Source of the DNA: Escherichia coli
GTDB lineage: Bacteria; Pseudomonadota; Gammaproteobacteria; Enterobacterales; Enterobacteriaceae
Length of the DNA: 64,000 bases
Assembly (NCBI RefSeq): GCF_011045215.1
Contig: NZ_CP049201.1
Direction: 5' to 3' (one strand)
Below, one piece after another: positions 5,491-56,350 of this stretch; the first letter of the stretch is position 1, and the number at the start of each line of letters is the position of its first letter. Both the position numbers and the translations under genes were made by a program. The notes beneath the pieces are model-generated. The model searched no databases. It had not been told where the DNA came from and saw nothing but the letters and a program-made list of their open reading frames with translations.

Positions 5491-6159
5491 ATGCCATCAC
5501 TCAGTAAAGAAGCGGCCCTGGTTCATGAAGCGTTAGTTGCGCGAGGACTGGAAACACCGCTGCGCCCGCCCGTGCATGAAATGGATAACGAAACGCGCAA
5601 AAGCCTTATTGCTGGTCATATGACCGAAATCATGCAGCTGCTGAATCTCGACCTGGCTGATGACAGTTTGATGGAAACGCCGCATCGCATCGCTAAAATG
5701 TATGTCGATGAAATTTTCTCCGGTCTGGATTACGCCAACTTCCCGAAAATCACCCTCATTGAAAACAAAATGAAGGTCGATGAAATGGTCACCGTGCGCG
5801 ATATCACTCTGACCAGTACCTGTGAACACCATTTTGTTACCATCGATGGCAAAGCGACGGTGGCTTATATCCCGAAAGATTCGGTGATCGGTCTGTCAAA
5901 AATTAACCGTATTGTGCAGTTCTTTGCCCAGCGTCCGCAGGTGCAGGAACGTCTGACGCAGCAAATTCTCATTGCGCTACAAACGCTGCTGGGCACCAAT
6001 AACGTGGCTGTCTCTATCGACGCGGTGCATTATTGCGTGAAGGCGCGTGGCATCCGCGATGCAACCAGTGCCACGACAACGACCTCTCTTGGTGGATTGT
6101 TCAAATCCAGTCAGAATACGCGCCACGAGTTTCTGCGCGCTGTGCGTCATCACAACTGA
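5491..6159 (+). CDS. folE: GTP cyclohydrolase I
   Basis: 222 aa ORF, length and neighbourhood match FolE. Confidence 0.9.
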
Positions 6160-6175
6160 TTTAAAGGCAGGAACC

Positions 6176-7333
6176 ATGGAGCGCAACGTCACGCTCGATT
6201 TTGTTCGCGGCGTCGCCATTCTGGGGATCCTGCTATTAAACATCAGCGCCTTTGGGCTACCAAAGGCGGCTTATCTTAATCCCGCCTGGTACGGTGCTAT
6301 TACGCCGCAGGATGCATGGACCTGGGCATTTCTCGATCTCATCGGCCAGGTGAAATTCCTCACGCTTTTTGCGCTGCTGTTTGGTGCGGGCCTGCAAATG
6401 TTGCTGCCCCGTGGCAGACGCTGGATCCAGTCGCGGTTAACGCTATTAGTCTTGCTGGGCTTTATTCACGGTTTATTGTTCTGGGACGGCGATATTCTGC
6501 TGGCTTACGGGCTGGTGGGCTTAATCTGCTGGCGGCTGGTGCGCGATGCGCCATCGGTAAAAAGCCTGTTTAATACCGGCGTCATGCTTTATCTGGTGGG
6601 GCTTGGCGTTTTGCTGTTATTGGGGTTGATTTCCGATACCCAGACCAGCCGCGCCTGGACGCCGGATGCATCGGCTATTTTGTATGAAAAATACTGGAAG
6701 CTTCACGGCGGCGTTGAAGCGATCAGTAATCGTGCCGATGGTGTTGGCAACAGTTTACTGGCACTGGGCGCACAGTATGGCTGGCAACTGGCAGGGATGA
6801 TGCTCATTGGTGCGGCGCTGATACGCAGCGGCTGGCTGAAAGGGCAGTTCAGCTTACGTCACTATCGTCGTACTGGTTTTGTGCTGGTGGCGATTGGGGT
6901 GACCATTAACCTTCCTGCCATCGCCCTGCAATGGCAGCTGGACTGGGCGTATCGCTGGTGTGCCTTCTTACTTCAAATGCCGCGGGAACTGAGTGCGCCG
7001 TTTCAGGCGATTGGCTATGCGTCGCTGTTTTATGGCTTCTGGCCGCAATTGAGCCGCTTTAAGCTGGTGCTTGCGATCGCCTGCGTCGGACGGATGGCGC
7101 TGACCAACTATCTATTGCAAACGCTGATTTGTACCACGCTTTTTTACCACCTCGGTTTGTTTATGCATTTTGACCGCCTGGAGCTGCTGGCGTTTGTTAT
7201 TCCGGTATGGCTGGCGAATATCCTCTTCTCTGTTATCTGGCTGCGTTACTTCCGCCAGGGGCCGGTGGAATGGCTCTGGCGTCAGTTAACTTTGCGTGCT
7301 GCCGGACCGGCAATATCTAAAACATCAAGATAA
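6176..7333 (+). CDS. yeiB: Inner-membrane protein, DUF418 family
   Basis: Track ORF 6047..7333 overlaps the folE 3' end; the internal Met (MERNVTL...) at 6176 gives 385 aa, which is the K-12 YeiB length. Polytopic membrane protein. Confidence 0.75.
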   Translation: MERNVTLDFVRGVAILGILLLNISAFGLPKAAYLNPAWYGAITPQDAWTWAFLDLIGQVKFLTLFALLFGAGLQMLLPRGRRWIQSRLTLLVLLGFIHGLLFWDGDILLAYGLVGLICWRLVRDAPSVKSLFNTGVMLYLVGLGVLLLLGLISDTQTSRAWTPDASAILYEKYWKLHGGVEAISNRADGVGNSLLALGAQYGWQLAGMMLIGAALIRSGWLKGQFSLRHYRRTGFVLVAIGVTINLPAIALQWQLDWAYRWCAFLLQMPRELSAPFQAIGYASLFYGFWPQLSRFKLVLAIACVGRMALTNYLLQTLICTTLFYHLGLFMHFDRLELLAFVIPVWLANILFSVIWLRYFRQGPVEWLWRQLTLRAAGPAISKTSR

Positions 7334-44952: not shown

Positions 44953-44990
44953 AATAAAAAAACCTGCTGGTGAGGCAGGTTCTTTTATTT
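44953..44990. terminator. Bidirectional rho-independent terminator in the yehK-yehL intergenic region
   Basis: 7-bp stem aacctgc/gcaggtt flanked by an A run upstream and a T run downstream, so it gives a U tract on either strand. Confidence 0.5.
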
Positions 44991-45276
44991 ACTATTTTCA
45001 GGCCTAACACCACAGCCTGTGCAACATCGTGTTCCAACGAACGAATTATAACCACGGCTGGACCCCGTTGCAATTAAGATAATGAGATTTATAATCCAGA
45101 CCGTTGGGACGTTGCGCCGGATCGAACCTATTTCAAGTCCTGGCTACCGGACGGGTGGTGCTGCAGGTGGTGCCCTGATCCGGAGTGCAACATCGTGGTC
45201 CAACATACGTAAACCAGTATCGACAGGCAGTGTAAGGGTAAGGTGCTGGTGTTGCGCTCCTTAATAAGGAGAGCGG

Positions 45277-45366
45277 ATGGACTCGCTGACACAAAAGTTA
45301 ACCGTGCTCATTGCTGTACTGGAGCTATTAGTAGCTCTGTTACGTTTGATTGATTTGTTGAAGTAA
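45277..45366 (+). CDS. Unannotated 29-codon hydrophobic/amphipathic peptide ORF (candidate small toxin-like membrane peptide)
   Basis: ATG preceded by SD aaggag (5 nt spacing); MDSLTQKLTVLIAVLELLVALLRLIDLLK; putative promoter ttgcaa-N16-tataat at 45068..45095; hairpin aaggggga-N7-tccccctt at 45389..45411. Confidence 0.35.
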   Translation: MDSLTQKLTVLIAVLELLVALLRLIDLLK

Positions 45367-45475
45367 CGGGCAAATTGAAACGCATCTAAGGGGGAAAACC
45401 GCTTCCCCCTTTAATAAAGCTATACTCGTCATACTTCAAGTTGCATGTGCTGCGACTTGAATTATCTAGAGTATA

Positions 45476-45793
45476 TTATTCTATTTCTTGGTTGAATATA
45501 TTCTGTAGTTCACGATTAAAAATTGCTATTACAGTTTCAGGTGATTCACCTCGTAATTTCCGCTCATCAATACACTCATCTCTTATATAAATCAACGCAT
45601 CATTTATTAGCGGGTCAGCATCTTCTCGATCACGTTGATGAAATGTTGGATGTAGCCGGAATCGCTCCAGTCGATAGACGGAACCTGTAAATAATTCAGA
45701 GCATTTATGGATCTCAAGTCTGAAGGAAAACGGATCTTCAGGTACAGGGACCTCATAATCGTAAATAGCAACCAGCTCTTTTTGCACGATCAT
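45476..45793 (-). CDS. yehK: Small acidic protein of unknown function
   Basis: 105 aa ORF 60 bp downstream of yehI on the same strand. Confidence 0.6.
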   Translation of the reverse strand: MIVQKELVAIYDYEVPVPEDPFSFRLEIHKCSELFTGSVYRLERFRLHPTFHQRDREDADPLINDALIYIRDECIDERKLRGESPETVIAIFNRELQNIFNQEIE

Positions 45794-45853
45794 CGCTTTC
45801 CCCGCTGGTAAGTCGTGTTGATAACGGGCAGTTGCATCACTGCCCGCTGTGTT

Positions 45854-48800
45854 TTAATGGAAAATGACGTCAGCTGCGCTTAACGCCTCACTCAAATCAA
45901 ACACATCGAGTTCGGCAAAAGTGACGGATTTATTGTTACGGTAAACCCGAAGAGAATGGAAGCTCATCAGCGCTTTGCTATCAGCACTGTAGTGGTTAAA
46001 ACCGGGTGAAAACTTAAGGACCAGCCGGTACTCACCCAGGTCATAGACAAATGCGTCCTCATAGCCTGACTCCCAGCCTTTGTATCGCATTCCCATAAGT
46101 TGCCCAACGGTAGCGGATTTACCTTCCCAGCGAGTCAGGCTGTTACTGGTTGACTCGTCAGGTGTGAGCAGCACCGTGCGGCGCGACAACTGGCGAAAAG
46201 GCGGCATAATTTCGTAATCGGCAAAAAGCTGTGCAAATTCACTGCGCATTTCTACTGTCATTTCTAACGGGTGGGCAATGCCAATCAGAGCGTCCGCAGG
46301 CAGGTCAATTGGCTCATCTTGCGCATTGCAGAACTCCCCCTCTGCGGCCACACGAAAGGCGTTGAGTAAACAACGCGGTTCATTTGCCGGATAAACCCCC
46401 CATATTAATCGCTGGGTAACCAGACGGGTAAAGGGATGATTAACAAACAGAGAATGAAAATCTGCCAGCGACCAGCGTCGGGTGGTACGTAGGGCCGTTT
46501 CAAGACGCGGGAGCAGGTTTTTGCTCACCTGAGTGGCATCTTTTTTTAGCCCTTTTAGTTGGGCCAGTGCCTCGGGCGCTTTCAGTTGATCGTCATCGGC
46601 GCGCAACCGGGGAACGCTTTTCTGGCGAACGTTTTGCTGATCAAAGATAATCGGGTTGAGGTTTTCATCGAAGCGAACGGTAAACTGCCGGGGACCAAAA
46701 TCAAAAATCAACGCCTGCGGATCATCAAGGCCAAGGGTTGGGACTAATCTGTCCGCTAGCTCTTCCTGGCTTAGCCCGCGATTTTCTGCGACCACCTGAA
46801 GAAATTCCGCCGCGTTATCACGTAAGGGGCGGGATTTAGCCCGTTGCGATATATGATGCAGCTGTATCAGCGCCATATCATTATTCATCAGGGTAAGGAT
46901 GTTCAGGCCGCTGACAGCACGGGCAGATTTGCCTTCTTGTGGCCAGGCGAGGATCTGTGTCGTCAGATCCCGTGCCGTGCTTTCGTCACCAAAGAGACTT
47001 AACGCCAGAAATGCCCAGTTGTCTTTTGCGGGGGCACCAGCTTGTTGCCACGCAGTGAAGAGATCCCAGGCAAAAGCTGCCAGCGTTTGTGGCTGGCAGA
47101 ACGTTTTCAGTTGTTCCAGCCCGCTATAAAAACGTCCCCCCTGGGTAAAGCGCAGCATTTCGCCGAAAATTTCCAGAGCGTCATCGGTAACAGTTTGATT
47201 ATTAGTGATAAGGCGCGGCCTGGACCACATTTGCGGATGCCAGAAATCAGGGGCTTTTGGAATGCGTGCCGGGTAAATCTCTATTGGACTCTGTTTAAGT
47301 AATTGTTCCAGGGCAGGCCATAGATCTGTACGCTGCCAACGATTGGCTAAAGTTTGTAGCAATTCGCCATGCCCATGTTCGTAAAGTAAACGCAGGGCAA
47401 GTAATGCAGCTTCGCTTTTATCGCTGGATTTGGTGAAGACAAGAGGGATAAGTGCAGTAGCCGTATGTTCCGGCCAATGTAAAATCCACTGGCGAGCCAG
47501 ATTACGCTGGCCCGCAAAACGGTGCCAGACGCGGGCAATGGGCAGGGCCAGTTCTGTTGCGCCGAAATTTAAAATTAACGGAAATGTTTCTTTTGGACGA
47601 TGTGAAAAAGCCAACAGCAGACCTGGTAGCGCATCCAATCCGAGGATACTGAGAAAATAGTCCTCACCCGCGAACAGATGCTTTTTCTCATTGATACGCA
47701 GCCAGAAGGTCAAAGCTATCTCACGCGGCAACTGTGCCAATAAATACAGGTTCCAGACACTCTTTTCCGGACGATAACGTGAGTAGTTGTCATTTTCCCA
47801 TATGTTAATTAACGCTTCTACGTGACCACTGCGAAGCGCCTGTTCTGCTAATGGTGCTTCCGGGGAGTTCCAGCCATTCAGGATCTCTTCAACCCGCCCC
47901 TGGTAGTAATGCCACTCAACAATGAGTGAATTGCGTGCAGCATCCAGTTTTCCGGGGAGTATATAATTCAAAAACAGCCATACATCATCCCCAAAACCCA
48001 GTTCCTGTAATACAACTCGCCCACTTTTTTGTTCCATGCGTTCCGCAAGAGATTCCGTGCTGAAATAACGGGCAGGCTCAGTGGCGGCAAGCCTCTCTCG
48101 TTCGCCTGGTTGCCAGTAAACTTGCGGAGTTAATTCGAGCCGTGCCAAATCAAGACGTGGAGCTGTCATTTTTTTCTTACTACGCCACGGTGGTGAAACG
48201 AGGATTTCAGGCAGATTGCTGTTATCGGTGCCATCAATAACCGGTTTTGGCAGTGCCGATAAATAACTCTTCAGCACTGCCCTGGCTTGAGTACTTAACC
48301 ACGGCATCACTTCTGCTGCCAGTTGTGGCTGCGATGCCATCAGCGTTTGTAACAGCGTACGCCAGTATTCATCGCGTGCTTTTTGCTGTGCAGGCAGCTT
48401 TTTGTCTTCGATGATTGGATAACCAGGGCGGGCTGGTGGTTCTGTTAACGCCAGCAGTTCTGCCAGTGCGGCGAGCGTCGCATGGGGGAAGTTTTTATGG
48501 TATTTAGCTACACGTTGCAGGCTGGGTTTGTTTTTATCAGCCACCAGTAGCAAGGTGCGGATGACTTGCGGATGGTTAATTTGTACCAGCAGACTGCCGC
48601 AATCTTCTTTATAGGCATACATCGCGAGGCGCGGAATGGCTGCCAGTCCTTGTTCGCGCAAAAGGGCGGCGCAGGCCGCGTAGCCGAAGTGGTTTTCATG
48701 CGACATGTAGCTGGCTTCTCGATCGCTAAATATATCCTGGCTCCAGTAGTGTTCGAGTTTTCTCACCGCTGTGGGGTCATTAGCTACAACTTTTAACCAC

Positions 48801-49486
48801 TCCTTAGAATGAAAATGAGTTCGCGGGCATTCAAGGCCTACCAACTCATTGGCTATTTCTGGTTTTTCCGGGAGGATCAGCGCAATAAAAGGGCGGCGAA
48901 CTTTGGTTATTCCTGGTAGTGCGGCAATGAGTTTGTCGGCGCAACGCTGCCAGCAGCTTTCCTCTGCCAGAGAGAGGTGTTTACGCAGTCGGAGATCGAA
49001 TTCGTTATAGGTTTCTGAGCGATAACCATAGCCATAGTCCTCGTTCTGATACTGCAATGTGACTACCAGAGGATCACTCTCATAACACCGTGCAATAAAC
49101 TGGCGTGCAATCACCACCTCAGTCGCATATTCCAGCCCCTCTTGTTGGACGATTTCGTCGAGCAACTGTTGGCTGTCATTTTGCGCGATACAGGCTAGCG
49201 CCGCCATTGTCCGGGCCGGGATTGAGGGTTTGTGTTCGCCGATCAAGTTGATGGCCTGCGTGATGGCGGACTGCCACTCCAGTGAAAAATTTTCATAACG
49301 CCAGACAATGTTTTTTTTCTTCTCAGCTTTTTGTAGCAATTCATCACCCAGTGTCTGAATGATGCTTTCAGTGATAACAGGCACTGGTTCGCCCGGCCAA
49401 TTGCGATGGCTGAGTGGTGTTTTACCCTTTTTATATTTCAGTTCCAGTTGGGCGTTATCAGCCAGCCACGGTAATTCCTTGTCCAT
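45854..49486 (-). CDS. yehI: Giant DUF4132-family protein (MolR paralog lacking the N-terminal WGR segment)
   Basis: 1210 aa; C-terminal ~450 aa aligns by eye with the C-termini of the two upstream paralogs. Confidence 0.8.
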   Translation of the reverse strand: MDKELPWLADNAQLELKYKKGKTPLSHRNWPGEPVPVITESIIQTLGDELLQKAEKKKNIVWRYENFSLEWQSAITQAINLIGEHKPSIPARTMAALACIAQNDSQQLLDEIVQQEGLEYATEVVIARQFIARCYESDPLVVTLQYQNEDYGYGYRSETYNEFDLRLRKHLSLAEESCWQRCADKLIAALPGITKVRRPFIALILPEKPEIANELVGLECPRTHFHSKEWLKVVANDPTAVRKLEHYWSQDIFSDREASYMSHENHFGYAACAALLREQGLAAIPRLAMYAYKEDCGSLLVQINHPQVIRTLLLVADKNKPSLQRVAKYHKNFPHATLAALAELLALTEPPARPGYPIIEDKKLPAQQKARDEYWRTLLQTLMASQPQLAAEVMPWLSTQARAVLKSYLSALPKPVIDGTDNSNLPEILVSPPWRSKKKMTAPRLDLARLELTPQVYWQPGERERLAATEPARYFSTESLAERMEQKSGRVVLQELGFGDDVWLFLNYILPGKLDAARNSLIVEWHYYQGRVEEILNGWNSPEAPLAEQALRSGHVEALINIWENDNYSRYRPEKSVWNLYLLAQLPREIALTFWLRINEKKHLFAGEDYFLSILGLDALPGLLLAFSHRPKETFPLILNFGATELALPIARVWHRFAGQRNLARQWILHWPEHTATALIPLVFTKSSDKSEAALLALRLLYEHGHGELLQTLANRWQRTDLWPALEQLLKQSPIEIYPARIPKAPDFWHPQMWSRPRLITNNQTVTDDALEIFGEMLRFTQGGRFYSGLEQLKTFCQPQTLAAFAWDLFTAWQQAGAPAKDNWAFLALSLFGDESTARDLTTQILAWPQEGKSARAVSGLNILTLMNNDMALIQLHHISQRAKSRPLRDNAAEFLQVVAENRGLSQEELADRLVPTLGLDDPQALIFDFGPRQFTVRFDENLNPIIFDQQNVRQKSVPRLRADDDQLKAPEALAQLKGLKKDATQVSKNLLPRLETALRTTRRWSLADFHSLFVNHPFTRLVTQRLIWGVYPANEPRCLLNAFRVAAEGEFCNAQDEPIDLPADALIGIAHPLEMTVEMRSEFAQLFADYEIMPPFRQLSRRTVLLTPDESTSNSLTRWEGKSATVGQLMGMRYKGWESGYEDAFVYDLGEYRLVLKFSPGFNHYSADSKALMSFHSLRVYRNNKSVTFAELDVFDLSEALSAADVIFH

Positions 49487-49495
49487 GCTCTTTCC

Positions 49496-52400
49496 TTATT
49501 CAAACAGGGCTTCAATATCGTTAATTAGCTCGCTGGCGGTGATGGCATCGAGTACGGAGAACAGCGCTTCCTGTGTTGAATTACTCCCCCAGCCATAGCT
49601 TTCCGCTTTGCCTTCCCATAGCCACAGCTTGCTTAAGAGCTGCTCAGCGCTAAGTTCGGCTGGTGACATACCCACTGCAAAGCCTTCATCGATTTCCATG
49701 ATTAACGACCAGCGGCCCAGAGGTTTGATCATCCAGCCGATCCAGCCTCCATCCTGTGGTTCGCCCTTTATCCAGCCTTTATTCGCCAGCCCCATTACCC
49801 GACCGCTCGGGCATTTTCTGCCTGCCCAGCGGGTCAGTTCGCTGGCGTTGCGCTCGGCTTCTGTCAGGGCGTAACTGTTACGGTCAAGCTGGCGGAACGG
49901 TGGTAACAGTTCGTAGTCGGCAAAAAGCTGACCAAAGGCGGCAGCATCCGTCGGTGATATTTCCAGAACGTGAGGAATACCAATAGAGATATCGCCTTCC
50001 GGCAGGGTGAAAAGATCATCGTCAGCGGTGCTGTAGCTGTTATCTTCCGCTACGCGAAAGCAAGCCTGCAGCTGGTTTTCGGCGCTATAAACGCCCCAAA
50101 TCAGACGGCGGGTTAAGTGGCGAACCAGCGGATGCTCAACCAGGAAGAGCTGAAAGTTTTCCGGTGACCAGCGGCGACGCAGGCACATGGCGGATTCCAG
50201 CCTTGCTACCTGCTGGGCGGCGACGGTACGCGCATCTTTTTTCAGCAGTTTGTAGCGGTTAACAGCATCGTTCGCCTGTGATTCATCATCGCTTTTGTTT
50301 GGTTTGGGCAGGTCTTTCAGACGGCTGCCAGAAACATCACGCACAAACGGTTTTAAGGTTTCATCAAAGCTGACGGTGAACTGGCGTGAGCCGAAATCCA
50401 GCAGCAACGAACCGTTATCATCCAGACCGAGATCCGGTGCTAACCGATCTTCAAGCTCTGCCACCGTGAGTTCGCGGCTTTCGGCAATGTCGGCAATTTT
50501 TTCTTTTGCCCGCTCCTGTAATGCTTTGAATTTCAGTTTCTGGGCAATACCGTTAAGCTGCATCAGGGCGATATCACTACCGATAGCGGCGAGAATATCC
50601 AACCCAACGGTGGCGCGTTTATGCTGGGATTCACCAGGCCAGGCGCGTATTAATGGCGTCAGTTTGCGGGCGGTGTCATCGTTACCAAGAACGCCTAACG
50701 CAGTGAACGCCCAACTCTCTTTCGACGGTGCGCCCGCAGTCAGCCAGGCGGTAAACAGATCCCAGGCAAATTCAGCCAGTGAGTCGGCGGTACAGGCATC
50801 TTTCACCTGCAATAATCCCGGATACAGGGCCTCTTCCTGAGGGAAGCGGAGCATTTCACCGAGGTGCTGGAGTGCGCTATCTGGCAGTACCTTGCTGCTA
50901 TTTTTGAGTTTCGGGCGAGTCCATAATGGAGGTTGATAAAACAACGGTAAAGGGGGGATTTTCGCCGGGTATTTACCCACAGGACTGTTGTCGTTATTTT
51001 TATTTTGAGTTTCCCAGGGCGGCGAGACTAGTACCATTGGTAGAATTTCTGAGTTTGCAAAATCTTCATTGCGACTATTCAGCAATTGCTGACATTGTTG
51101 CAATAAATTTACCGCTTGCGACGATAATCCGATGACTAATTTTTCGACCAATAAAGGATTTGCATTAAGTAATGAAACCAGCAACGTATGTTTGCGTTTA
51201 TCATCTTTTTTTACCAATGCTTCGGCTAATGCCGCTATCGTGGCAGAAGGAAAATTTTCGGCACTTTTTATTAGTCGTTCATAACAGCGTTTATTAGTAT
51301 CGGCGGCTTCGATGAGTGCCGTAATGGCCAACGGATGATTAATACATTTCAGTACGTCACCGCAATTATCTTCTTCAGCATAGGGAGCCAGGCGAGCCAG
51401 TGCCGCTATACCTTGCTCCCGTAATACCGTAGCTGACCAACTGGCACCATAGGTGTTAAATACATCAATGTATTGATAGTTCTCCAGTATTTCGAGCGTG
51501 AATGGATCTGTCGCTACCAGTTTCAACATTTCAAGTTGTGGAACATCTGCGACCTGGTGTAAACGATGTACGATCTCATGGGCCACTTCGGGTATTTCTG
51601 GCATTAAAATGGCAATTAACGGTTGGCGATAGAGTGATATATCTGGTAACGCAACGAGTAATTTTGCAATGCAATTTTGCCATACTTCTTCTTCTGCTAG
51701 TGATAAATGTTTACGCAGACGTAAACTAAATTTGTCGTTATTCCTTCTATAACTGTCCTTGCTGCTATCTGCATAATTAATAAAGAAAGTCAAATGTTCA
51801 TCTTTATAGTCAAAATCGAAATCAATTTGCCACCAGAAGATGACAGTTTCAGTTGCGTATTCGATACCGAAGGTGCTTACAATTTCATCCAGCAACTCGG
51901 ATGAGGTTTCATCATTCCAGCCCTGACAAAAACATATTTCCAGAAAAGTAAGTACCGCCATAGTACGCGCGGGTATCTTAGTCTTTTGGGCCTTAATTAA
52001 GCTGATTGCCTGGCTAATCGCATCAGCCCATTCATCAGAGCATGAGCTGTAATCGAAAGTCAGATTTTTATAATAATGATAAGTACGATTTGCCAATCGG
52101 GAAATTAAATTTTGTTTCTCGGGTTTGGTTGGTTTTTTTACTGGCTCTCCCGGCCAAAGGCGGTGGCTGAGGGCATGGCGGGCAATATTCGGGGGAAGAA
52201 TAATGGGATCGTTGTCTGCCAGCCAGGGTAAACCATTAGTTGCTGCCTGGCGATTTATTGAGGCTTTTTCCTCTGTGACCAGGACTTTCTTTGCTGAGGC
52301 ATCATGTGAGTGAGCGTTAGCGTCTACTTGCTCCACATACCCCTTCTTCACCTTCTCCGCAATCAGCTTCAGTGCTGCTTTTTCCGCCGCCGCAGTATCT

Positions 52401-52528
52401 GCAAAGCTTTTTACCTGACTTTGCCCGTTGGTACCGACTTTACCCCAGTTAATATGCAGCTCGTTTCCCTGCTGCTCCACCGCCCAGAATTTATGTGATT
52501 TTTCGTCCTGATAAATATAGGTTTTCAT
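49496..52528 (-). CDS. WGR-domain / DUF4132 protein, middle MolR-family paralog
   Basis: 1010 aa; N-terminal 65 aa nearly identical to the upstream paralog; C-terminal half ~70% identical to it; central part AT-rich and divergent. Confidence 0.75.
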   Translation of the reverse strand: MKTYIYQDEKSHKFWAVEQQGNELHINWGKVGTNGQSQVKSFADTAAAEKAALKLIAEKVKKGYVEQVDANAHSHDASAKKVLVTEEKASINRQAATNGLPWLADNDPIILPPNIARHALSHRLWPGEPVKKPTKPEKQNLISRLANRTYHYYKNLTFDYSSCSDEWADAISQAISLIKAQKTKIPARTMAVLTFLEICFCQGWNDETSSELLDEIVSTFGIEYATETVIFWWQIDFDFDYKDEHLTFFINYADSSKDSYRRNNDKFSLRLRKHLSLAEEEVWQNCIAKLLVALPDISLYRQPLIAILMPEIPEVAHEIVHRLHQVADVPQLEMLKLVATDPFTLEILENYQYIDVFNTYGASWSATVLREQGIAALARLAPYAEEDNCGDVLKCINHPLAITALIEAADTNKRCYERLIKSAENFPSATIAALAEALVKKDDKRKHTLLVSLLNANPLLVEKLVIGLSSQAVNLLQQCQQLLNSRNEDFANSEILPMVLVSPPWETQNKNNDNSPVGKYPAKIPPLPLFYQPPLWTRPKLKNSSKVLPDSALQHLGEMLRFPQEEALYPGLLQVKDACTADSLAEFAWDLFTAWLTAGAPSKESWAFTALGVLGNDDTARKLTPLIRAWPGESQHKRATVGLDILAAIGSDIALMQLNGIAQKLKFKALQERAKEKIADIAESRELTVAELEDRLAPDLGLDDNGSLLLDFGSRQFTVSFDETLKPFVRDVSGSRLKDLPKPNKSDDESQANDAVNRYKLLKKDARTVAAQQVARLESAMCLRRRWSPENFQLFLVEHPLVRHLTRRLIWGVYSAENQLQACFRVAEDNSYSTADDDLFTLPEGDISIGIPHVLEISPTDAAAFGQLFADYELLPPFRQLDRNSYALTEAERNASELTRWAGRKCPSGRVMGLANKGWIKGEPQDGGWIGWMIKPLGRWSLIMEIDEGFAVGMSPAELSAEQLLSKLWLWEGKAESYGWGSNSTQEALFSVLDAITASELINDIEALFE

Positions 52529-52540
52529 TGTTAAATCCTT

Positions 52541-55500
52541 TTAATCAAACAGTGATTCAATGTCGTTAATCAGCTCGCTGGCGGTGATGTCGTCGAGCAT
52601 GGAGAAAGTGGGTGAGGATTGTTTACCATAGCGATCATAAGGGGCGGTGATTTTTACGCTTTCGACAGGCAGCAGGTCGCTATACCCCGTTTCGCCATAA
52701 ATTAATGAAAAAGGTTCCGTTTCAAGTTCGAGAGCACCATAAGGGGTAGATTTGCGCATCGCATAGACGCTGCCGCTTTCTTCCAGACGTTGCCAGCCTC
52801 GGCGTTCCAGCCCGACAATGCGTCCGGCCTGGCAGAGACGTCCGTTCCAGCGTGACAATTCATGGACATTACGTTCGTTATCAGCAAGGTGGTAACTACC
52901 ACGTTCGAACTGTTGGAAAGGGGGAAGCAGTTCGTAATCAACGTAAATTTGCCTGAATGCAGCGGCGGATTCAGGGGGGATTTCCAGCACATGCGGTATA
53001 CCGATGTTTCCTGCTGGCAGCGTGAATAACTCATCCTGCGCATCGCTGTAAGTGCTGTCTTCTGCCACGCGAAAACAGGTGATAAGAGCGTTTTCATCGT
53101 TATAACCCCCCCATAACAGCCGTCGGGTTAAGTGACGTACCAGCGGATGCTCCACCAGAAACAGGCGGAACTGCTCTGCCGTCCAGCGTCTGCGCTGGCA
53201 CATAGCCTGTTCCAGACGGGTAATTTGCTGGCTGGCGATAGCACGAACATCTTTTTTCAACTGTTTGAAGAGATTAACTGCGTCAGTTGCCAGTGTTTTA
53301 TCATCGCTCTGGTTTGGCTTAGGTAAATCTTTCAGGACTTTGCCGTTTGCATCGCACACTACAGGTTTTAAGGTTTCGTCAAAACCAACGGTGAATTTGC
53401 GGGGGCCGAAATCCAGTGTCAGCGAGCCACTGCTATCAAGCCCTAAATCTGGAGCCAGGCGGTCTTCCAGTTCAGCCATAGTCAGCCCACGGTTTTCAGC
53501 AACTATGTTGATTTTCTCGCGGGCATGTTCCTGTAATGCTTTGAATTTAATTTTTCGCGCGATGCCATTAAGCAGCATTAGCGCAACATCGCTGCCAATA
53601 TCAGCTAATACATCCAGCCCGGACACCGCCCGTTTATGCTGGGATTCCCCAGGCCAGGCGCGGATAAGCGGGGTTAATTTACGCGCGGTGTCGTCATTGC
53701 CTAAAATCCCAAGCGAAGTAAATGCCCAGTTTTCTTTTGCGGGTGCGCCAGCTTCTGTCCAGGCGGTATACAGATCCCAGCCAAATTCAGCCAGTGATTC
53801 GCGGGTGAAGATTTCTCTAATGATATCCAGCCCAGCGTAGGCGGTAATGTCGCGAGGAAAGCTCAGCATAGTGCCGAGGTGGCGCATAGCGTCATCTGAC
53901 AGAGGCAGGTTGTTACTTTTAAGCCGTGGTCTGCGCCACAAGGTGAACTGATAAAAGCCGGACAGTGGGGCGATTTTAGCGGGATATTCTTCCAGTGGGT
54001 CGCTATCGAACAATGTTGCCAGCGCAGCTAAAACATCAGGTTGGTTGTATCCCTGGGCGATTTCCTCAATCGTTTCTCGCTGGTTTAAATTCACCAGCAG
54101 ACGAAGCGCCTGGCGGGCACAATCACGATCTTTTCCCTGTTTGCCCAGGGCCACAGGAAGTAGCCCGGCGGCGGCATGGCGTGGGTAGTCAGTTAGCCAG
54201 TTTCGCGCATCTTCATAAGACATTTTTTTCTGTAGCTGTTGCGCCATCGGTAAGGCCAGTTCACTGACACCGAGGAAGAAGGTGAAGAAGCACAGGCGTC
54301 GTGGATTACGTTGCAGACAGGTCATAAATGCAGGTATGGCGGCGCTACCAAAAATTGCCAGAATATTTTCCTCACCAGAGTAGTTATCTTCTTTGACTAT
54401 CTGGTTAAGAAAAGAAATGGCCTGTTGACCAGGCAGGTAACAGAGGGCCATGAGATCCCAGCTTTTGTATGCATTGTTATGGTATTGCGCAAATTCAGCA
54501 TTGAGTGCTGGAAAATCGAAGCGTAGCAGGGCATCAACGGCGCTTTGTGGGGCCGGAATTTTTTCGTATATTTTCTCTCCGCTTTCCCGCCATTTTTCAA
54601 AACCAAGATGCCACAGTATTTGTTGCTCCGGTGTAAGCGGTATTAATTGTTTCTCCCAGCTTGCTTTTTTCATCGGCGGCAGGTCGGTAAACAATGTTTG
54701 TTTTGTCGCCTGCTGTTGGGCTATTTGCTGGAAGCGGGTGACAAGGTAAGTACGGGTTAGTCTTTTGGCAATCTCGGGAGTGACATCAGAAACAGAAGGA
54801 ACTGGAAGCACAGGAAGATCAAACACAGGCGTATTTTTCTTTTTCTCTTTGGTCATCCAGGGCGGCGAAACAAGCAGTTGTGGCAACATATCCGCAGTGG
54901 CGTATTCACACACTTCAGTCACAGGTTGCAGGCGACATTCAGATAAGATGCCAGCGGCTTTGGCATTCACCCAGGGAATGACGTCGCATACTAACTCTGG
55001 CGTGGCGGTAATCAGTTTGACAAGCGCTTTACGCCACTCTTTATCTTCATGTATTGCCAGCAAAGTAGCATAAGCCGCAATAGCCGCAGCGGGATGCTTT
55101 TGACTGGCCTTGCTTAAGTATTCCAGGTGCTTTTTCTTACCAATTACACCGAGGATCAGAATTTGAATCGCATCCGGGTGATTAGTTTTCCATAGCCATT
55201 TGACAAGATTTTCAGTCTCGCTGATGCGTTCGAAGAGATAAGTGGGATTGTCAGAATGGTCTTCCGTAAACTCAAGAAGTATCCGGCTTACACCGCGCAC
55301 CCCATTATTTGCCAACAACATTGCCAGATAAGCGCGAAAATTACGAAAATCACGATACAACGGTGGGAAGTCGTATTTTTCCACTGTACTCAGAGCAGTA
55401 TCATCGGTTATCACCAGTCTTAACCAGGCCATCGCCGGGACGTTTTGGTCTGCATAGCGTAGAGCTATAGCATGGGCGATATCCGGGCGTTCAGGGAGCA

Positions 55501-56350
55501 GTAACGCCGCAAAAGGTTGCCGTGCGGGGGATAGCGTCGGAATGGCGGTGAGTACTTTATCTACACAGCGTTGCCACTCATCTTCTGAAGCGAGTGAAAG
55601 ATGATGACATAGACGTTGATGCCAACTAGGTAGCGATTCTGCTTCGTGATTAGGTGGAATGATGGTGGTTACTGCGCCTTTTACTGGTTTATATTTGAGT
55701 TGAAGGGCAAAAAGGGCGATTTCAACGGCGCTTTCCAGACCACAGCGAATGACTAAGTCATCGACCAGTTCATCTGCAGAGTAAGAGTTCCAAAAACTCC
55801 AGAGCAATGCTGCATCAGATTGCGCACTCCCTGTCTGTTGATTATCCAGAATTCGCCTTTGTAACTCAGCAAAAGCCTGCTGCCAGTTTTCAGGATAAGA
55901 GCGGTAATTGTTGTCGGGATCATATGCCCTGGTGTTATCTGCAATACGCTTCCATATCTCACCGTCTTTGCGCAGATAATTGATCTCTCTGGGGCGAGAG
56001 CGATGAGGAAAAGCAAATCGGTTAATATCGTCAGTTACCGGAATAACTGCATCATCAGCCAGCCACGGGCGTTGGTTTTTACTCTCAGGGGAAGATTCAA
56101 CTTCAGGAGTGGCTTTGGTGATGGGGGAGATATGCACGTTTGCTGAAGCATTTTCCACATAGCCTTTTTTCGTTTTCTCTGCGATCAGCTTAAGCTCCGC
56201 TTTTGCCGCTGCCGCAGCATCTGCAAAACTTTTTATCTGGCTTTGCCCTTTGGTGCCAACTTTTCCCCAACTGATATGCAACTCGTTTCCCTGTTGCTCC
56301 ACCGCCCAGAATTTATGTGATTTTTCGTCCTGATAGATAAAGTGTCTCAT
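52541..56350 (-). CDS. molR: WGR-domain / DUF4132 protein, intact MolR-like
   Basis: 1269 aa uninterrupted ORF starting MRHFIYQDEKSHKFWAVEQQGNELHISWGKVGT... (WGR-like); lies between metG and yehI, where K-12 carries a molR pseudogene as I recall. Confidence 0.75.
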   Translation of the reverse strand: MRHFIYQDEKSHKFWAVEQQGNELHISWGKVGTKGQSQIKSFADAAAAAKAELKLIAEKTKKGYVENASANVHISPITKATPEVESSPESKNQRPWLADDAVIPVTDDINRFAFPHRSRPREINYLRKDGEIWKRIADNTRAYDPDNNYRSYPENWQQAFAELQRRILDNQQTGSAQSDAALLWSFWNSYSADELVDDLVIRCGLESAVEIALFALQLKYKPVKGAVTTIIPPNHEAESLPSWHQRLCHHLSLASEDEWQRCVDKVLTAIPTLSPARQPFAALLLPERPDIAHAIALRYADQNVPAMAWLRLVITDDTALSTVEKYDFPPLYRDFRNFRAYLAMLLANNGVRGVSRILLEFTEDHSDNPTYLFERISETENLVKWLWKTNHPDAIQILILGVIGKKKHLEYLSKASQKHPAAAIAAYATLLAIHEDKEWRKALVKLITATPELVCDVIPWVNAKAAGILSECRLQPVTEVCEYATADMLPQLLVSPPWMTKEKKKNTPVFDLPVLPVPSVSDVTPEIAKRLTRTYLVTRFQQIAQQQATKQTLFTDLPPMKKASWEKQLIPLTPEQQILWHLGFEKWRESGEKIYEKIPAPQSAVDALLRFDFPALNAEFAQYHNNAYKSWDLMALCYLPGQQAISFLNQIVKEDNYSGEENILAIFGSAAIPAFMTCLQRNPRRLCFFTFFLGVSELALPMAQQLQKKMSYEDARNWLTDYPRHAAAGLLPVALGKQGKDRDCARQALRLLVNLNQRETIEEIAQGYNQPDVLAALATLFDSDPLEEYPAKIAPLSGFYQFTLWRRPRLKSNNLPLSDDAMRHLGTMLSFPRDITAYAGLDIIREIFTRESLAEFGWDLYTAWTEAGAPAKENWAFTSLGILGNDDTARKLTPLIRAWPGESQHKRAVSGLDVLADIGSDVALMLLNGIARKIKFKALQEHAREKINIVAENRGLTMAELEDRLAPDLGLDSSGSLTLDFGPRKFTVGFDETLKPVVCDANGKVLKDLPKPNQSDDKTLATDAVNLFKQLKKDVRAIASQQITRLEQAMCQRRRWTAEQFRLFLVEHPLVRHLTRRLLWGGYNDENALITCFRVAEDSTYSDAQDELFTLPAGNIGIPHVLEIPPESAAAFRQIYVDYELLPPFQQFERGSYHLADNERNVHELSRWNGRLCQAGRIVGLERRGWQRLEESGSVYAMRKSTPYGALELETEPFSLIYGETGYSDLLPVESVKITAPYDRYGKQSSPTFSMLDDITASELINDIESLFD

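What the first reader, a model, noticed from the sequence alone, without database searches (positions are those of the whole stretch)
45476..45793. yehK: small acidic ORF tightly linked to the giant yehI gene
A 105-aa protein is encoded 60 bp after yehI on the same strand, with no obvious intervening terminator. Small partner proteins of this kind next to a large sensor or effector often act as immunity or regulatory factors.
Basis: inference. Interest (0 to 1): 0.35.

Follow-up and report, generated by a model that had tools for sequence, protein, structure and literature searches.

The report
yehK: orphan Rhs-toxin immunity gene
The small acidic E. coli gene yehK is real and conserved, but its relatives in other bacteria sit directly behind one type of Rhs toxin tip, so it is most likely a stand-alone "orphan" immunity gene against a competitor's toxin, not a partner of its large neighbour yehI.

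Summary
A 105-aa acidic ORF (pI 4.8) lies at 45476-45793 on the minus strand, 60 bp after yehI. It is E. coli yehK, it is present in 5203 of 5426 complete genomes, and it is under purifying selection (dN/dS about 0.15).

An exhaustive profile search found a small family with no Pfam, NCBIfam or PADLOC model. None of its 65 non-Escherichia loci encodes a DUF4132 protein. In 25 of the 61 loci with enough upstream sequence, the YehK-like gene starts -16 to +32 bp (once 248 bp) after an Rhs/YD-repeat protein. That protein ends in one conserved, basic, Cys-rich domain of about 66 aa (GRWxCxAxCNV...AKR...RHCxCxC), which also has no Pfam or PDB match.

A reverse search with the toxin tip found an Rhs gene on a Thiodictyon plasmid. 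The gene 8 bp downstream of it is a YehK-family member. The tip is 48-77% identical between carriers whose Rhs cores are only 25-36% identical.

Klebsiella oxytoca has the same yeh cluster, but there yehI is followed directly by yehL and there is no yehK.

Best reading: yehK is an orphan copy of a new Rhs-toxin immunity family, fixed in Escherichia between yehI and a zorO/orzO toxin-antitoxin locus. It is a new member of a known kind, of moderate interest.

The parts
45476..45793 (-). yehK coding sequence: 105 aa, acidic, predicted fold of four beta-strands plus a C-terminal helix. It is an orphan member of the Rhs-tip immunity family.
   Evidence: ORF and annotation; family; AF2 pLDDT 89.5; dN/dS 0.13-0.16; pI 4.78. 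The family's nearly invariant residues R25, E27, R46, P49, F51 and D65 are all present in YehK.
45823..45848 (-). 10-bp G+C-rich hairpin (GCGGGCAGUG-n6-CUGCCCGU) in the 60-nt yehI-yehK spacer, with no U-tract on the coding strand. It is probably a leaky terminator or RNA-stabilising hairpin that is read through from yehI.
   Evidence: MFE -27.2 kcal/mol for the 91-nt stretch, z = -2.9; stem conserved in E. albertii; kept with one G-U pair in the distant relative L004.
45797..45804 (-). Shine-Dalgarno-like GGGGAAAG, ending 3 nt upstream of the yehK ATG. In the MFE fold it pairs with the last codons of yehI (UUUUCC), which may indicate translational coupling. This is inference only.
   Evidence: sequence
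45390..45409 (.). Hairpin GGGGGAA-n6-TTCCCCC lying between the convergent yehK (-) and zorO (+) genes. It is a likely shared bidirectional terminator.
   Evidence: sequence read directly. The pattern scan did not list it, so this is inference.

Best explanation
YehK belongs to a previously uncurated family of small acidic cytoplasmic proteins of about 100-120 aa, with four beta-strands and one helix. These proteins are the cognate immunity proteins of one specific Rhs/YD-repeat toxin tip. The tip is a basic C-terminal domain of about 66 aa with 6-9 cysteines (consensus G-R-W-x-C-x-A-x-C-N-V ... P-x-R-V-x-G ... A-C-x-x-A-K-R-x-A ... P-x-G-x-Y-x-R-H-C-x-C-x-C). In toxin-producing bacteria, the immunity gene starts a few bases after the rhs stop codon. 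Its product is expected to bind the tip and neutralise it. This binding is inferred from the general rule for Rhs and CDI systems. The opposite charges (immunity about -9, tip +4 to +8) fit it. In Escherichia there is no toxin gene next to yehK. The gene is an 'orphan' copy that entered the yehI-yehL spacer in an ancestor of the genus. It is probably transcribed by read-through from yehI and has been kept by purifying selection. Its most likely job is to protect the cell from this class of Rhs toxin when it is delivered by competing bacteria. Shown here: the gene is real, the family exists, the family is linked to the toxin tip, there is no link to DUF4132 outside Escherichia, and yehK is absent from the Klebsiella cluster. 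Inferred: physical neutralisation of the toxin, that the E. coli copy is still protective, and co-transcription with yehI.
For: 1. Family. A profile search of 1.84 billion representative proteins gave 55 hits, including relatives of about 100-120 aa at 25-48% identity with shared motifs.
2. Context found by protein look-up. Rhs/YD giants lie upstream on the same strand in L010, L014, L015, L016, L018 and L022, and in L012.
3. Metagenome scan plus HMM analysis. In 25 of 61 non-Escherichia loci with >=250 bp upstream, the conserved Cys-rich tip ends -16 to +32 bp (once 248 bp) before the YehK-like gene.
4. Reciprocal test. A tblastn with the tip alone found one plasmid Rhs gene (Ca. Thiodictyon pTs485). 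The 'hypothetical' gene 8 bp downstream of it matches the YehK HMM at E = 1e-16.
5. Modularity. The tip is 48-77% identical between carriers whose Rhs cores are 25-36% identical. Tip identity and immunity identity co-vary (Pearson 0.79, Mantel 0 of 5000).
6. Charge. YehK has pI 4.78 and the family median is 4.8. The tips have pI 8.7-9.3.
7. E. coli YehK keeps all nearly invariant family residues and has dN/dS 0.13-0.16.
8. No tip domain occurs in the window or in the Escherichia loci.
9. The syntenic K. oxytoca cluster lacks yehK.
10. The rule that the gene directly after an Rhs-CT or CdiA-CT encodes its immunity protein is experimentally established (Poole et al. 2011, PMC3150448).
Against: No experiment links any family member to toxin neutralisation, and no toxicity has been shown for the tip.

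The E. coli gene itself fails the positional criterion, because no toxin lies upstream of it.

Its closest relatives (42-48% identity: L006, L007, L022) are not directly next to the tip. They lie in arrays of small genes or beside a DUF4265 protein.

About half of the family loci with long flanks show no Rhs at all. Examples are the Ottowia-like clade (L009, L028, L029, L032-L034, L039) and L017.

The loci were collected with one motif, [YF]R[LIV]QPTFP[QL], so the 25 of 61 figure describes one sub-group.

The tip-immunity co-variation could reflect shared descent alone.

I could not test whether any bacterium that meets E. coli carries this toxin.

The conserved 60-bp spacing and hairpin after yehI would also fit a function tied to yehI.
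Confidence: 0.6

Rival explanations
1. YehK is a functional partner of YehI or of the whole DUF4132 / MoxR-AAA (YehL) / DUF5682 (YehM) / VWA (YehP) / SWIM (YehQ) cluster. It could be an inhibitor, an immunity factor or a regulator. This is what the first reader proposed.
For: The two genes are invariably adjacent on the same strand with a 60-bp gap in E. coli, E. albertii and a relative whose YehI is 64% identical. The spacer hairpin is conserved. No separate promoter was detected. yehK and yehI have the same dN/dS. They are present or absent together in E. coli.
Against: None of 65 family loci outside Escherichia has a DUF4132 or YehL-like neighbour. The fully syntenic K. oxytoca cluster and a S. 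fonticola yehI ortholog have no yehK. The family's recurrent partner is an Rhs toxin tip. Co-occurrence within a single genus is explained by physical linkage.
Confidence: 0.12
2. yehK is a former immunity gene that no longer acts against any toxin. It has either been put to some unrelated use in Escherichia or is kept only because it is transcribed along with yehI.
For: There is no toxin in the locus. No tip was found in any E. coli record of PLSDB, which includes at least three whole chromosomes filed there that do carry yehK. YehK differs from the main group in the most conserved loop (HPTFHQ in place of QPTFPQ). It is only 25-48% identical to other members.
Against: dN/dS of 0.13-0.16 over dS of about 1 or more rules out neutral decay. 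All nearly invariant residues are retained. The gene is present in 96% of E. coli genomes and in four other Escherichia lineages.
Confidence: 0.22
3. The YehK family proteins are not immunity proteins. They are accessory factors of the Rhs toxin, such as a chaperone, adaptor or activator.
For: The assignment rests only on gene position. Rhs loci also encode adaptors and chaperones.
Against: Known Rhs and T6SS adaptors (the EagR, DUF4123 and DUF2169 types, from established knowledge) are encoded upstream of the effector and track its N-terminal region. The YehK-like gene instead follows the C-terminal tip and tracks it across unrelated Rhs cores. It also persists as orphans and in arrays beside annotated immunity genes, for example the MafI family in L074. 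That behaviour is typical of immunity genes.
Confidence: 0.05

Closest known systems
RhsI / CdiI immunity proteins of polymorphic toxin systems (Poole et al. 2011, PMC3150448; TriX immunity protein of the Xenorhabdus bovienii Rhs toxin TreX, PDB 8s2m)
   Same: It is a small cytoplasmic protein encoded a few bases after the variable C-terminal toxin tip of an Rhs protein, on the same strand. It travels with the tip as a cassette across different Rhs cores. Its charge is opposite to that of the toxin.
Orphan immunity genes and poly-immunity arrays (Rhs orphan clusters of Salmonella and E. coli, PMC3967940 and PMC7043789; the Stenotrophomonas poly-immunity cluster, bioRxiv 10.64898/2026.07.13.738213; acquired interbacterial defence clusters of Bacteroides, from my own knowledge)
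   Same: It is a homolog of a cognate immunity gene found without its toxin and kept under selection. Other family members sit in long arrays of small genes after an Rhs gene (L010, L015, L018, L022).
   Different: E. coli yehK is not in an Rhs locus, an immunity array or a mobile island. It is a single gene fixed genus-wide between a DUF4132 gene and a type I toxin-antitoxin locus, and it is apparently expressed from its neighbour's transcript.
Small partner genes of DUF4132 / WGR (MolR-YehH-YehI) and MoxR-VWA clusters
   Same: In Escherichia it lies directly downstream of yehI, upstream of yehLMPQ, on the same strand.
   Different: It is not conserved with these clusters in any other genus examined.

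Membership tests
Cognate immunity protein of an Rhs (polymorphic) toxin | Encoded immediately downstream of the toxin's C-terminal tip, on the same strand, with a very short gap | tested here: met
   This holds for the family. In 25 of 61 non-Escherichia loci the tip ends -16 to +32 bp (once 248 bp) before the gene. It was confirmed in reverse on Thiodictyon pTs485, where the gap is 8 bp.
Cognate immunity protein of an Rhs (polymorphic) toxin | The same positional feature applied to the E. coli gene itself | tested here: not met
   The tip HMM has no hit anywhere in the 64-kb window or in the Escherichia loci L001-L005. The upstream gene is yehI (DUF4132). E. coli yehK is therefore filed as an orphan and not as a cognate immunity gene.
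Cognate immunity protein of an Rhs (polymorphic) toxin | Tracks the variable tip and not the conserved Rhs core (cassette behaviour) | tested here: met
   Tips are 48-77% identical between carriers whose cores are 25-36% identical. Tip identity and immunity identity correlate (Pearson 0.79, Mantel 0 of 5000) across 17 distinct pairs. Shared descent may contribute to this correlation.
Cognate immunity protein of an Rhs (polymorphic) toxin | Binds the toxin domain and blocks its activity | not testable with these tools
   This needs co-expression rescue and pull-down experiments. Only the opposite charges are seen here.
Orphan immunity gene | Homolog of a cognate immunity gene, with no toxin gene beside it | tested here: met
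   The family HMM scores YehK at E = 1.6e-36. No tip and no Rhs are found in the window.
Orphan immunity gene | Maintained by selection and not decaying | tested here: met
   dN/dS is 0.13-0.16. The gene is present in 5203 of 5426 E. coli genomes. The conserved residues are retained.
Orphan immunity gene | Protects against the corresponding toxin delivered by other cells | not testable with these tools
   This needs competition assays.
Partner of YehI / DUF4132 systems | Co-occurs with DUF4132 genes across taxa | tested here: not met
   None of 65 non-Escherichia family loci has one. The K. oxytoca and S. fonticola yehI loci lack yehK.
Curated immunity families (Pfam Imm*/DUF, NCBIfam, PADLOC) | Significant match to a family model | tested here: not met
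   There is no hit for YehK, no consistent hit among 64 members at E <= 1, no NCBIfam hit for distant members and no PDB sequence relative.

The most novel reading that the evidence does not exclude
All of Escherichia carries a chromosomally fixed, stand-alone immunity gene (yehK) that gives the genus built-in resistance to an undescribed class of small Cys-rich Rhs toxins used by other bacteria. The toxin tip and YehK together form a new toxin-immunity pair whose target and mechanism are unknown.
Probability: 0.45. Interest if true: 0.6.

Novelty: new member of a known kind. Interest (0 to 1): 0.5.

Why it matters
yehK is one of the remaining E. coli 'y-genes' with no known function, family or structure. 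This work gives it a specific hypothesis that can be tested cheaply: it neutralises a defined toxin domain of about 66 aa. The work also defines two new sequence families, an Rhs toxin tip and its immunity protein. If the hypothesis is confirmed, yehK would be an orphan immunity gene that became a core gene of a whole genus, not a strain-variable island gene. That bears on how gut bacteria build up standing defences against contact-dependent weapons. The result also removes yehK from models of the poorly understood DUF4132 / MoxR / VWA / SWIM (yehH-yehQ) cluster.

Tried and rejected
- **Curated family libraries.** Pfam, NCBIfam and PADLOC gave nothing for YehK. PHROGs was not run.
- **Word-indexed homology search.** It found only Escherichia proteins and wrongly suggested a genus-restricted orphan gene. 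The exhaustive profile search overturned this.
- **AF2 with 14 close sequences.** The model had pLDDT 44 and was unusable. It succeeded only with the 64-sequence alignment.
- **Genome-collection scan with the broad alignment.** The motif-restricted scan found only 6 species.
- **Viral contigs.** They contain no relatives, so a phage origin was dropped.
- **Rhs tips not adjacent to the YehK-like gene.** Pfam found no known toxin domain in the tips of L010, L015, L016 and L018, and these tips are unrelated to one another. In those loci the YehK-like gene is an array member and not the cognate gene.
- **Delivery system.** I looked for PAAR or VgrG near two tip-bearing Rhs genes (L036, L074) and found none. 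The delivery route is therefore undetermined.
- **Literature.** 'yehK' mostly matches author names. The only relevant mentions are a weak sigma-S-dependent antisense signal in the K-12 yehI-yehK intergenic region (PMC3141248) and an adaptive SNP in the yehK/yehL intergenic region (PMC6881287). 'b4541' gave no papers.
- **Chance ORF.** Rejected on the basis of dN/dS and family conservation.

Full report
**1. Checking the observation**

The window carries an ATG-initiated ORF of 105 codons at 45476-45793 on the minus strand. The next ORF upstream on that strand is 45854-49486, 1210 aa, with a C-terminal DUF4132 domain. The gap between them is exactly 60 bp.

The region is 100% identical to E. 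coli strain PapM-32-1. RefSeq names the genes there yehK ('protein YehK') and yehI.

The surrounding genes, all on the minus strand, run in this order:
- metG
- two intact WGR+DUF4132 paralogs (52541-56350 and 49496-52528)
- yehI
- yehK
- yehL (AAA_5/MoxR-like)
- yehM (DUF5682)
- yehP (VWA_CoxE)
- yehQ (SWIM)

The protein is acidic, with pI 4.78 and net charge about -9.

The phrase 'no obvious terminator' needs one qualification. The spacer holds a 10-bp G+C-rich hairpin at 45823-45848. It is conserved in E. albertii and in a more distant relative. On the coding strand it has no U-tract. No promoter-like site lies between the genes. Read-through from yehI is therefore plausible but not shown.

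**2. Is it a real gene?**

Yes, on four grounds:
- yehK is present at >=80% coverage in 5203 of 5426 complete E. coli genomes.
- It has orthologs in E. fergusonii, E. albertii and E. marmotae, and in an unidentified relative whose YehI is only 64% identical.
- dN/dS is 0.13-0.16 at dS of about 0.9-1.4, the same as for yehI.
- With a deep alignment, AlphaFold2 predicts a confident fold of four antiparallel strands followed by a C-terminal helix (pLDDT 89.5, pTM 0.79).

**3. The family**

Pfam, NCBIfam and PADLOC have no model that matches YehK. A word-indexed search saw only Escherichia proteins.

An exhaustive HMMER search of 1.84 billion representative proteins, using a YehK profile, found 55 hits at E <= 0.001. 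These include proteins of about 100-120 aa that are 25-48% identical to YehK. They share clear motifs: F-x-F-R-L-E-[IV], G-x-V-Y-R-x-E-x-[YF]-R-[LIV]-Q-P-T-F-P-Q, and D-D-A-L-x-Y-V-x-D.

YehK keeps all of the nearly invariant positions (R25, E27, R46, P49, F51, D65). None of 64 members matches any Pfam family consistently. The family profile has no sequence relative in the PDB.

**4. What the relatives sit next to**

This is the decisive evidence.

Contexts found by exact-protein look-up showed a giant Rhs/YD-repeat protein upstream on the same strand in six metagenomic or genomic loci (L010, L014, L015, L016, L018, L022). It was often followed by a run of small genes (Ank, Sel1, TPR, DUF6869, DUF4279, an Rhs-tip fragment). 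tblastn added a seventh locus, L012.

A metagenome scan with the family's best-conserved motif returned 51 more loci. When I extracted the ORF that ends just before each YehK-like gene, one C-terminal sequence kept recurring. It is a basic stretch of about 66 aa with 6-9 cysteines: G-R-W-[ST]-C-[TA]-A-[SQ]-C-N-V ... P-x-R-V-x-G-x-A-x-G-[KP]-[TS]-E-x-x-A-C-x-[EA]-A-K-R-x-A-x-x-S-x-P-x-G-x-Y-x-R-H-C-x-C-x-C. It follows the Rhs core and a variable linker.

An HMM of this tip hits directly upstream of the YehK-like gene in 25 of the 61 non-Escherichia loci that have at least 250 bp of upstream sequence. The stop-to-start distances are -16 to +32 bp, with one at 248 bp. The carriers are genuine Rhs proteins with RHS_repeat, RHS core and DUF6531 domains. 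The tip has no Pfam, NCBIfam or PDB relative.

**5. Reciprocal and cassette tests**

I searched the plasmid collection with the tip alone. The single hit was an annotated 'RHS repeat-associated core domain-containing protein' on plasmid pTs485 of Candidatus Thiodictyon syntrophicum. The 116-aa 'hypothetical protein' that starts 8 bp after it is a divergent YehK-family member (HMM E = 1e-16). A direct tblastn with a family member had missed it.

Between carriers, the tip is 48-77% identical, whereas the preceding Rhs core is 25-36% identical and the linker 16-41%. Across 17 distinct tip/immunity pairs, the two identities co-vary (Pearson 0.79; Mantel 0 of 5000 permutations). Shared ancestry may contribute to this.

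The proteins have opposite charges: family median pI 4.8, tips pI 8.7-9.3.

Together these match the standard signature of a polymorphic-toxin tip and its cognate immunity gene. That rule has been established experimentally for Rhs and CDI systems (PMC3150448).

**6. What this means for E. coli yehK**

The tip HMM finds nothing in the 64-kb window or in any Escherichia locus. The tip was also absent from every E. coli record in PLSDB, including whole chromosomes filed there that do carry yehK.

No DUF4132, WGR or YehL-like sequence occurs in any of the 65 non-Escherichia family loci.

Klebsiella oxytoca has the same cluster: four DUF4132 genes, then yehL, M, P, Q, R, S and btsRS. Its yehI ortholog (60% identical) is followed by a 230-bp spacer and then yehL. 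The family HMM finds no yehK there. A Serratia fonticola yehI ortholog also lacks it.

yehK is therefore a lineage-specific insertion into the yehI-yehL spacer. It is not a conserved component of the DUF4132/MoxR/VWA/SWIM system.

The same spacer also took up a type I toxin-antitoxin locus (section 8). This suggests that the site tolerates small selfish or defensive genes.

The best reading is that yehK is an orphan immunity gene, fixed in Escherichia and kept by selection. It probably protects against Rhs toxins with this tip when other bacteria deliver them.

The confidence differs between the two parts of the claim:
- Family-level assignment (immunity protein of this Rhs tip): about 0.85.
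- The E. coli copy still acts this way: about 0.55.

**7. Caveats**

- Nothing here is experimental.
- The metagenome loci were collected with one motif, so 25 of 61 describes one sub-group.
- YehK's closest relatives (42-48% identical) lie at the end of an Rhs-linked array (L022), next to a DUF4265 protein (L007), or after an unrelated 184-aa ORF (L006). They do not directly follow the tip.
- A clade related to the Ottowia sp. protein, together with several other loci, shows no Rhs within 10 kb.
- The delivery route of the toxin and its target are unknown. No PAAR or VgrG was seen near two carriers.
- The conserved spacing and hairpin after yehI leave room for a yehI-linked role. I rate that at about 0.12.

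**8. Seen in passing**

[quoted passage not shown] The 29-aa ZorO toxin is at 45277-45366 (+), convergent with yehK. Divergent promoter-like sites lie at 45045-45095. The system is known from E. coli O157:H7 (PMC3919570).
- This stretch varies between strains. Only 3385 genomes cover 80% of 45300-46000, and some strains carry about 600 extra bp.
- A 74-nt element just after the yehK stop codon is repeated about four times per genome.
- In strain FCI56, an IS1 element has replaced yehK and the neighbouring DUF4132 genes.

**9. Novelty and score**

The gene and its position are known, but its function was not. Filing yehK in a new Rhs toxin/immunity family, as an orphan, adds a new member to a well-known kind of system. 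It is a concrete, testable assignment for an E. coli y-gene and defines two uncurated families. It is not a new principle. Interest: 0.5.

Noticed in passing
window 44956-45366: A zorO/orzO type I toxin-antitoxin locus lies between yehK and yehL. The OrzO sRNA is at 44956-45031 (-) (Rfam RF02083, 99.9 bits). The ZorO toxin, 29 aa (MDSLTQKLTVLIAVLELLVALLRLIDLLK), is at 45277-45366 (+), convergent with yehK. Divergent promoter-like sites lie at 45068-45095 (+) and 45073-45045 (-). The system is known from O157:H7 (PMC3919570).
   Followed up: partly
window 45300-46000 compared with E. coli genomes: The stretch downstream of yehK varies between strains. Only 3385 of 5426 genomes cover >=80% of 45300-46000, although 5203 have yehK. 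Some strains (for example 2012C-4221 and UTME-3) match in two pieces spanning 1309 bp, so they carry about 600 bp of extra DNA there. The zorP/orzP tandem duplication described for O157:H7 may account for it.
   Followed up: partly
window 45405-45478: A 74-nt element immediately 3' of the yehK stop codon is repeated, with a median of 4 places per E. coli genome. It has a weak match, below threshold, to part of the isrH sRNA model (22 bits, E = 0.001). Its identity is unknown.
   Followed up: partly
L036 9790-9988; L074 6001-6195; about 25 loci in all (L008, L023, L025, L027, L035-L037, L042, L043, L045, L046, L049-L056, L061, L063, L065): An undescribed, basic Rhs C-terminal toxin-tip domain of about 66 aa with 6-9 Cys (GRWxCxAxCNV...AKR...RHCxCxC). 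It has no Pfam, NCBIfam or PDB relative. Its activity and target are unknown, and the cysteine pattern suggests metal binding.
   Followed up: partly
window 45854-56350: Three intact DUF4132 paralogs stand in tandem: 1269 aa and 1010 aa with an N-terminal WGR domain, and 1210-aa YehI without one. K. oxytoca has four (L020). From my own knowledge, the molR part is split into pseudogene fragments in K-12. The function of the DUF4132 / MoxR-AAA / DUF5682 / VWA / SWIM cluster remains unknown. PADLOC gave only a marginal WGR_XIII hit (E = 0.005).
   Followed up: no
L021 (E. coli FCI56) 6060-6757: In strain FCI56 an IS1A element sits where yehK and the neighbouring DUF4132 genes should be. A single DUF4132 gene, annotated as truncated, is left between metG and yehL. 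This shows how the roughly 200 genomes that lack both yehK and the yehI 3' end can arise.
   Followed up: partly
window 45780-45870 (-): In the minimum-free-energy fold, the yehK Shine-Dalgarno region (GGGGAAAG) pairs with the last codons of yehI (UUUUCC) around the conserved hairpin (z = -2.9). Ribosomes finishing yehI could then unmask the yehK start site. This is speculative.
   Followed up: partly
L009, L028, L029, L032, L033, L034, L039: A clade of YehK-like genes, about 50% identical to P0086 and related to the Ottowia sp. oral taxon 894 protein, has no Rhs gene or toxin tip within up to 10 kb. These look like further independent orphan copies outside Escherichia.
   Followed up: partly
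L074 9610-12122: On Thiodictyon plasmid pTs485, the tip/YehK-like pair is followed by an IS element and then a run of small genes that includes an annotated MafI-family immunity protein and a DUF1493 protein. This is a mixed immunity array.
   Followed up: no
E. coli K-12, yehI-yehL intergenic region (literature): A run-off microarray study lists a weak sigma-S-dependent signal antisense to the yehI-yehK intergenic probe (ratio 1.54; PMC3141248). An E. coli line adapted to deuterated medium acquired a SNP in the yehK/yehL intergenic region (PMC6881287).
   Followed up: no
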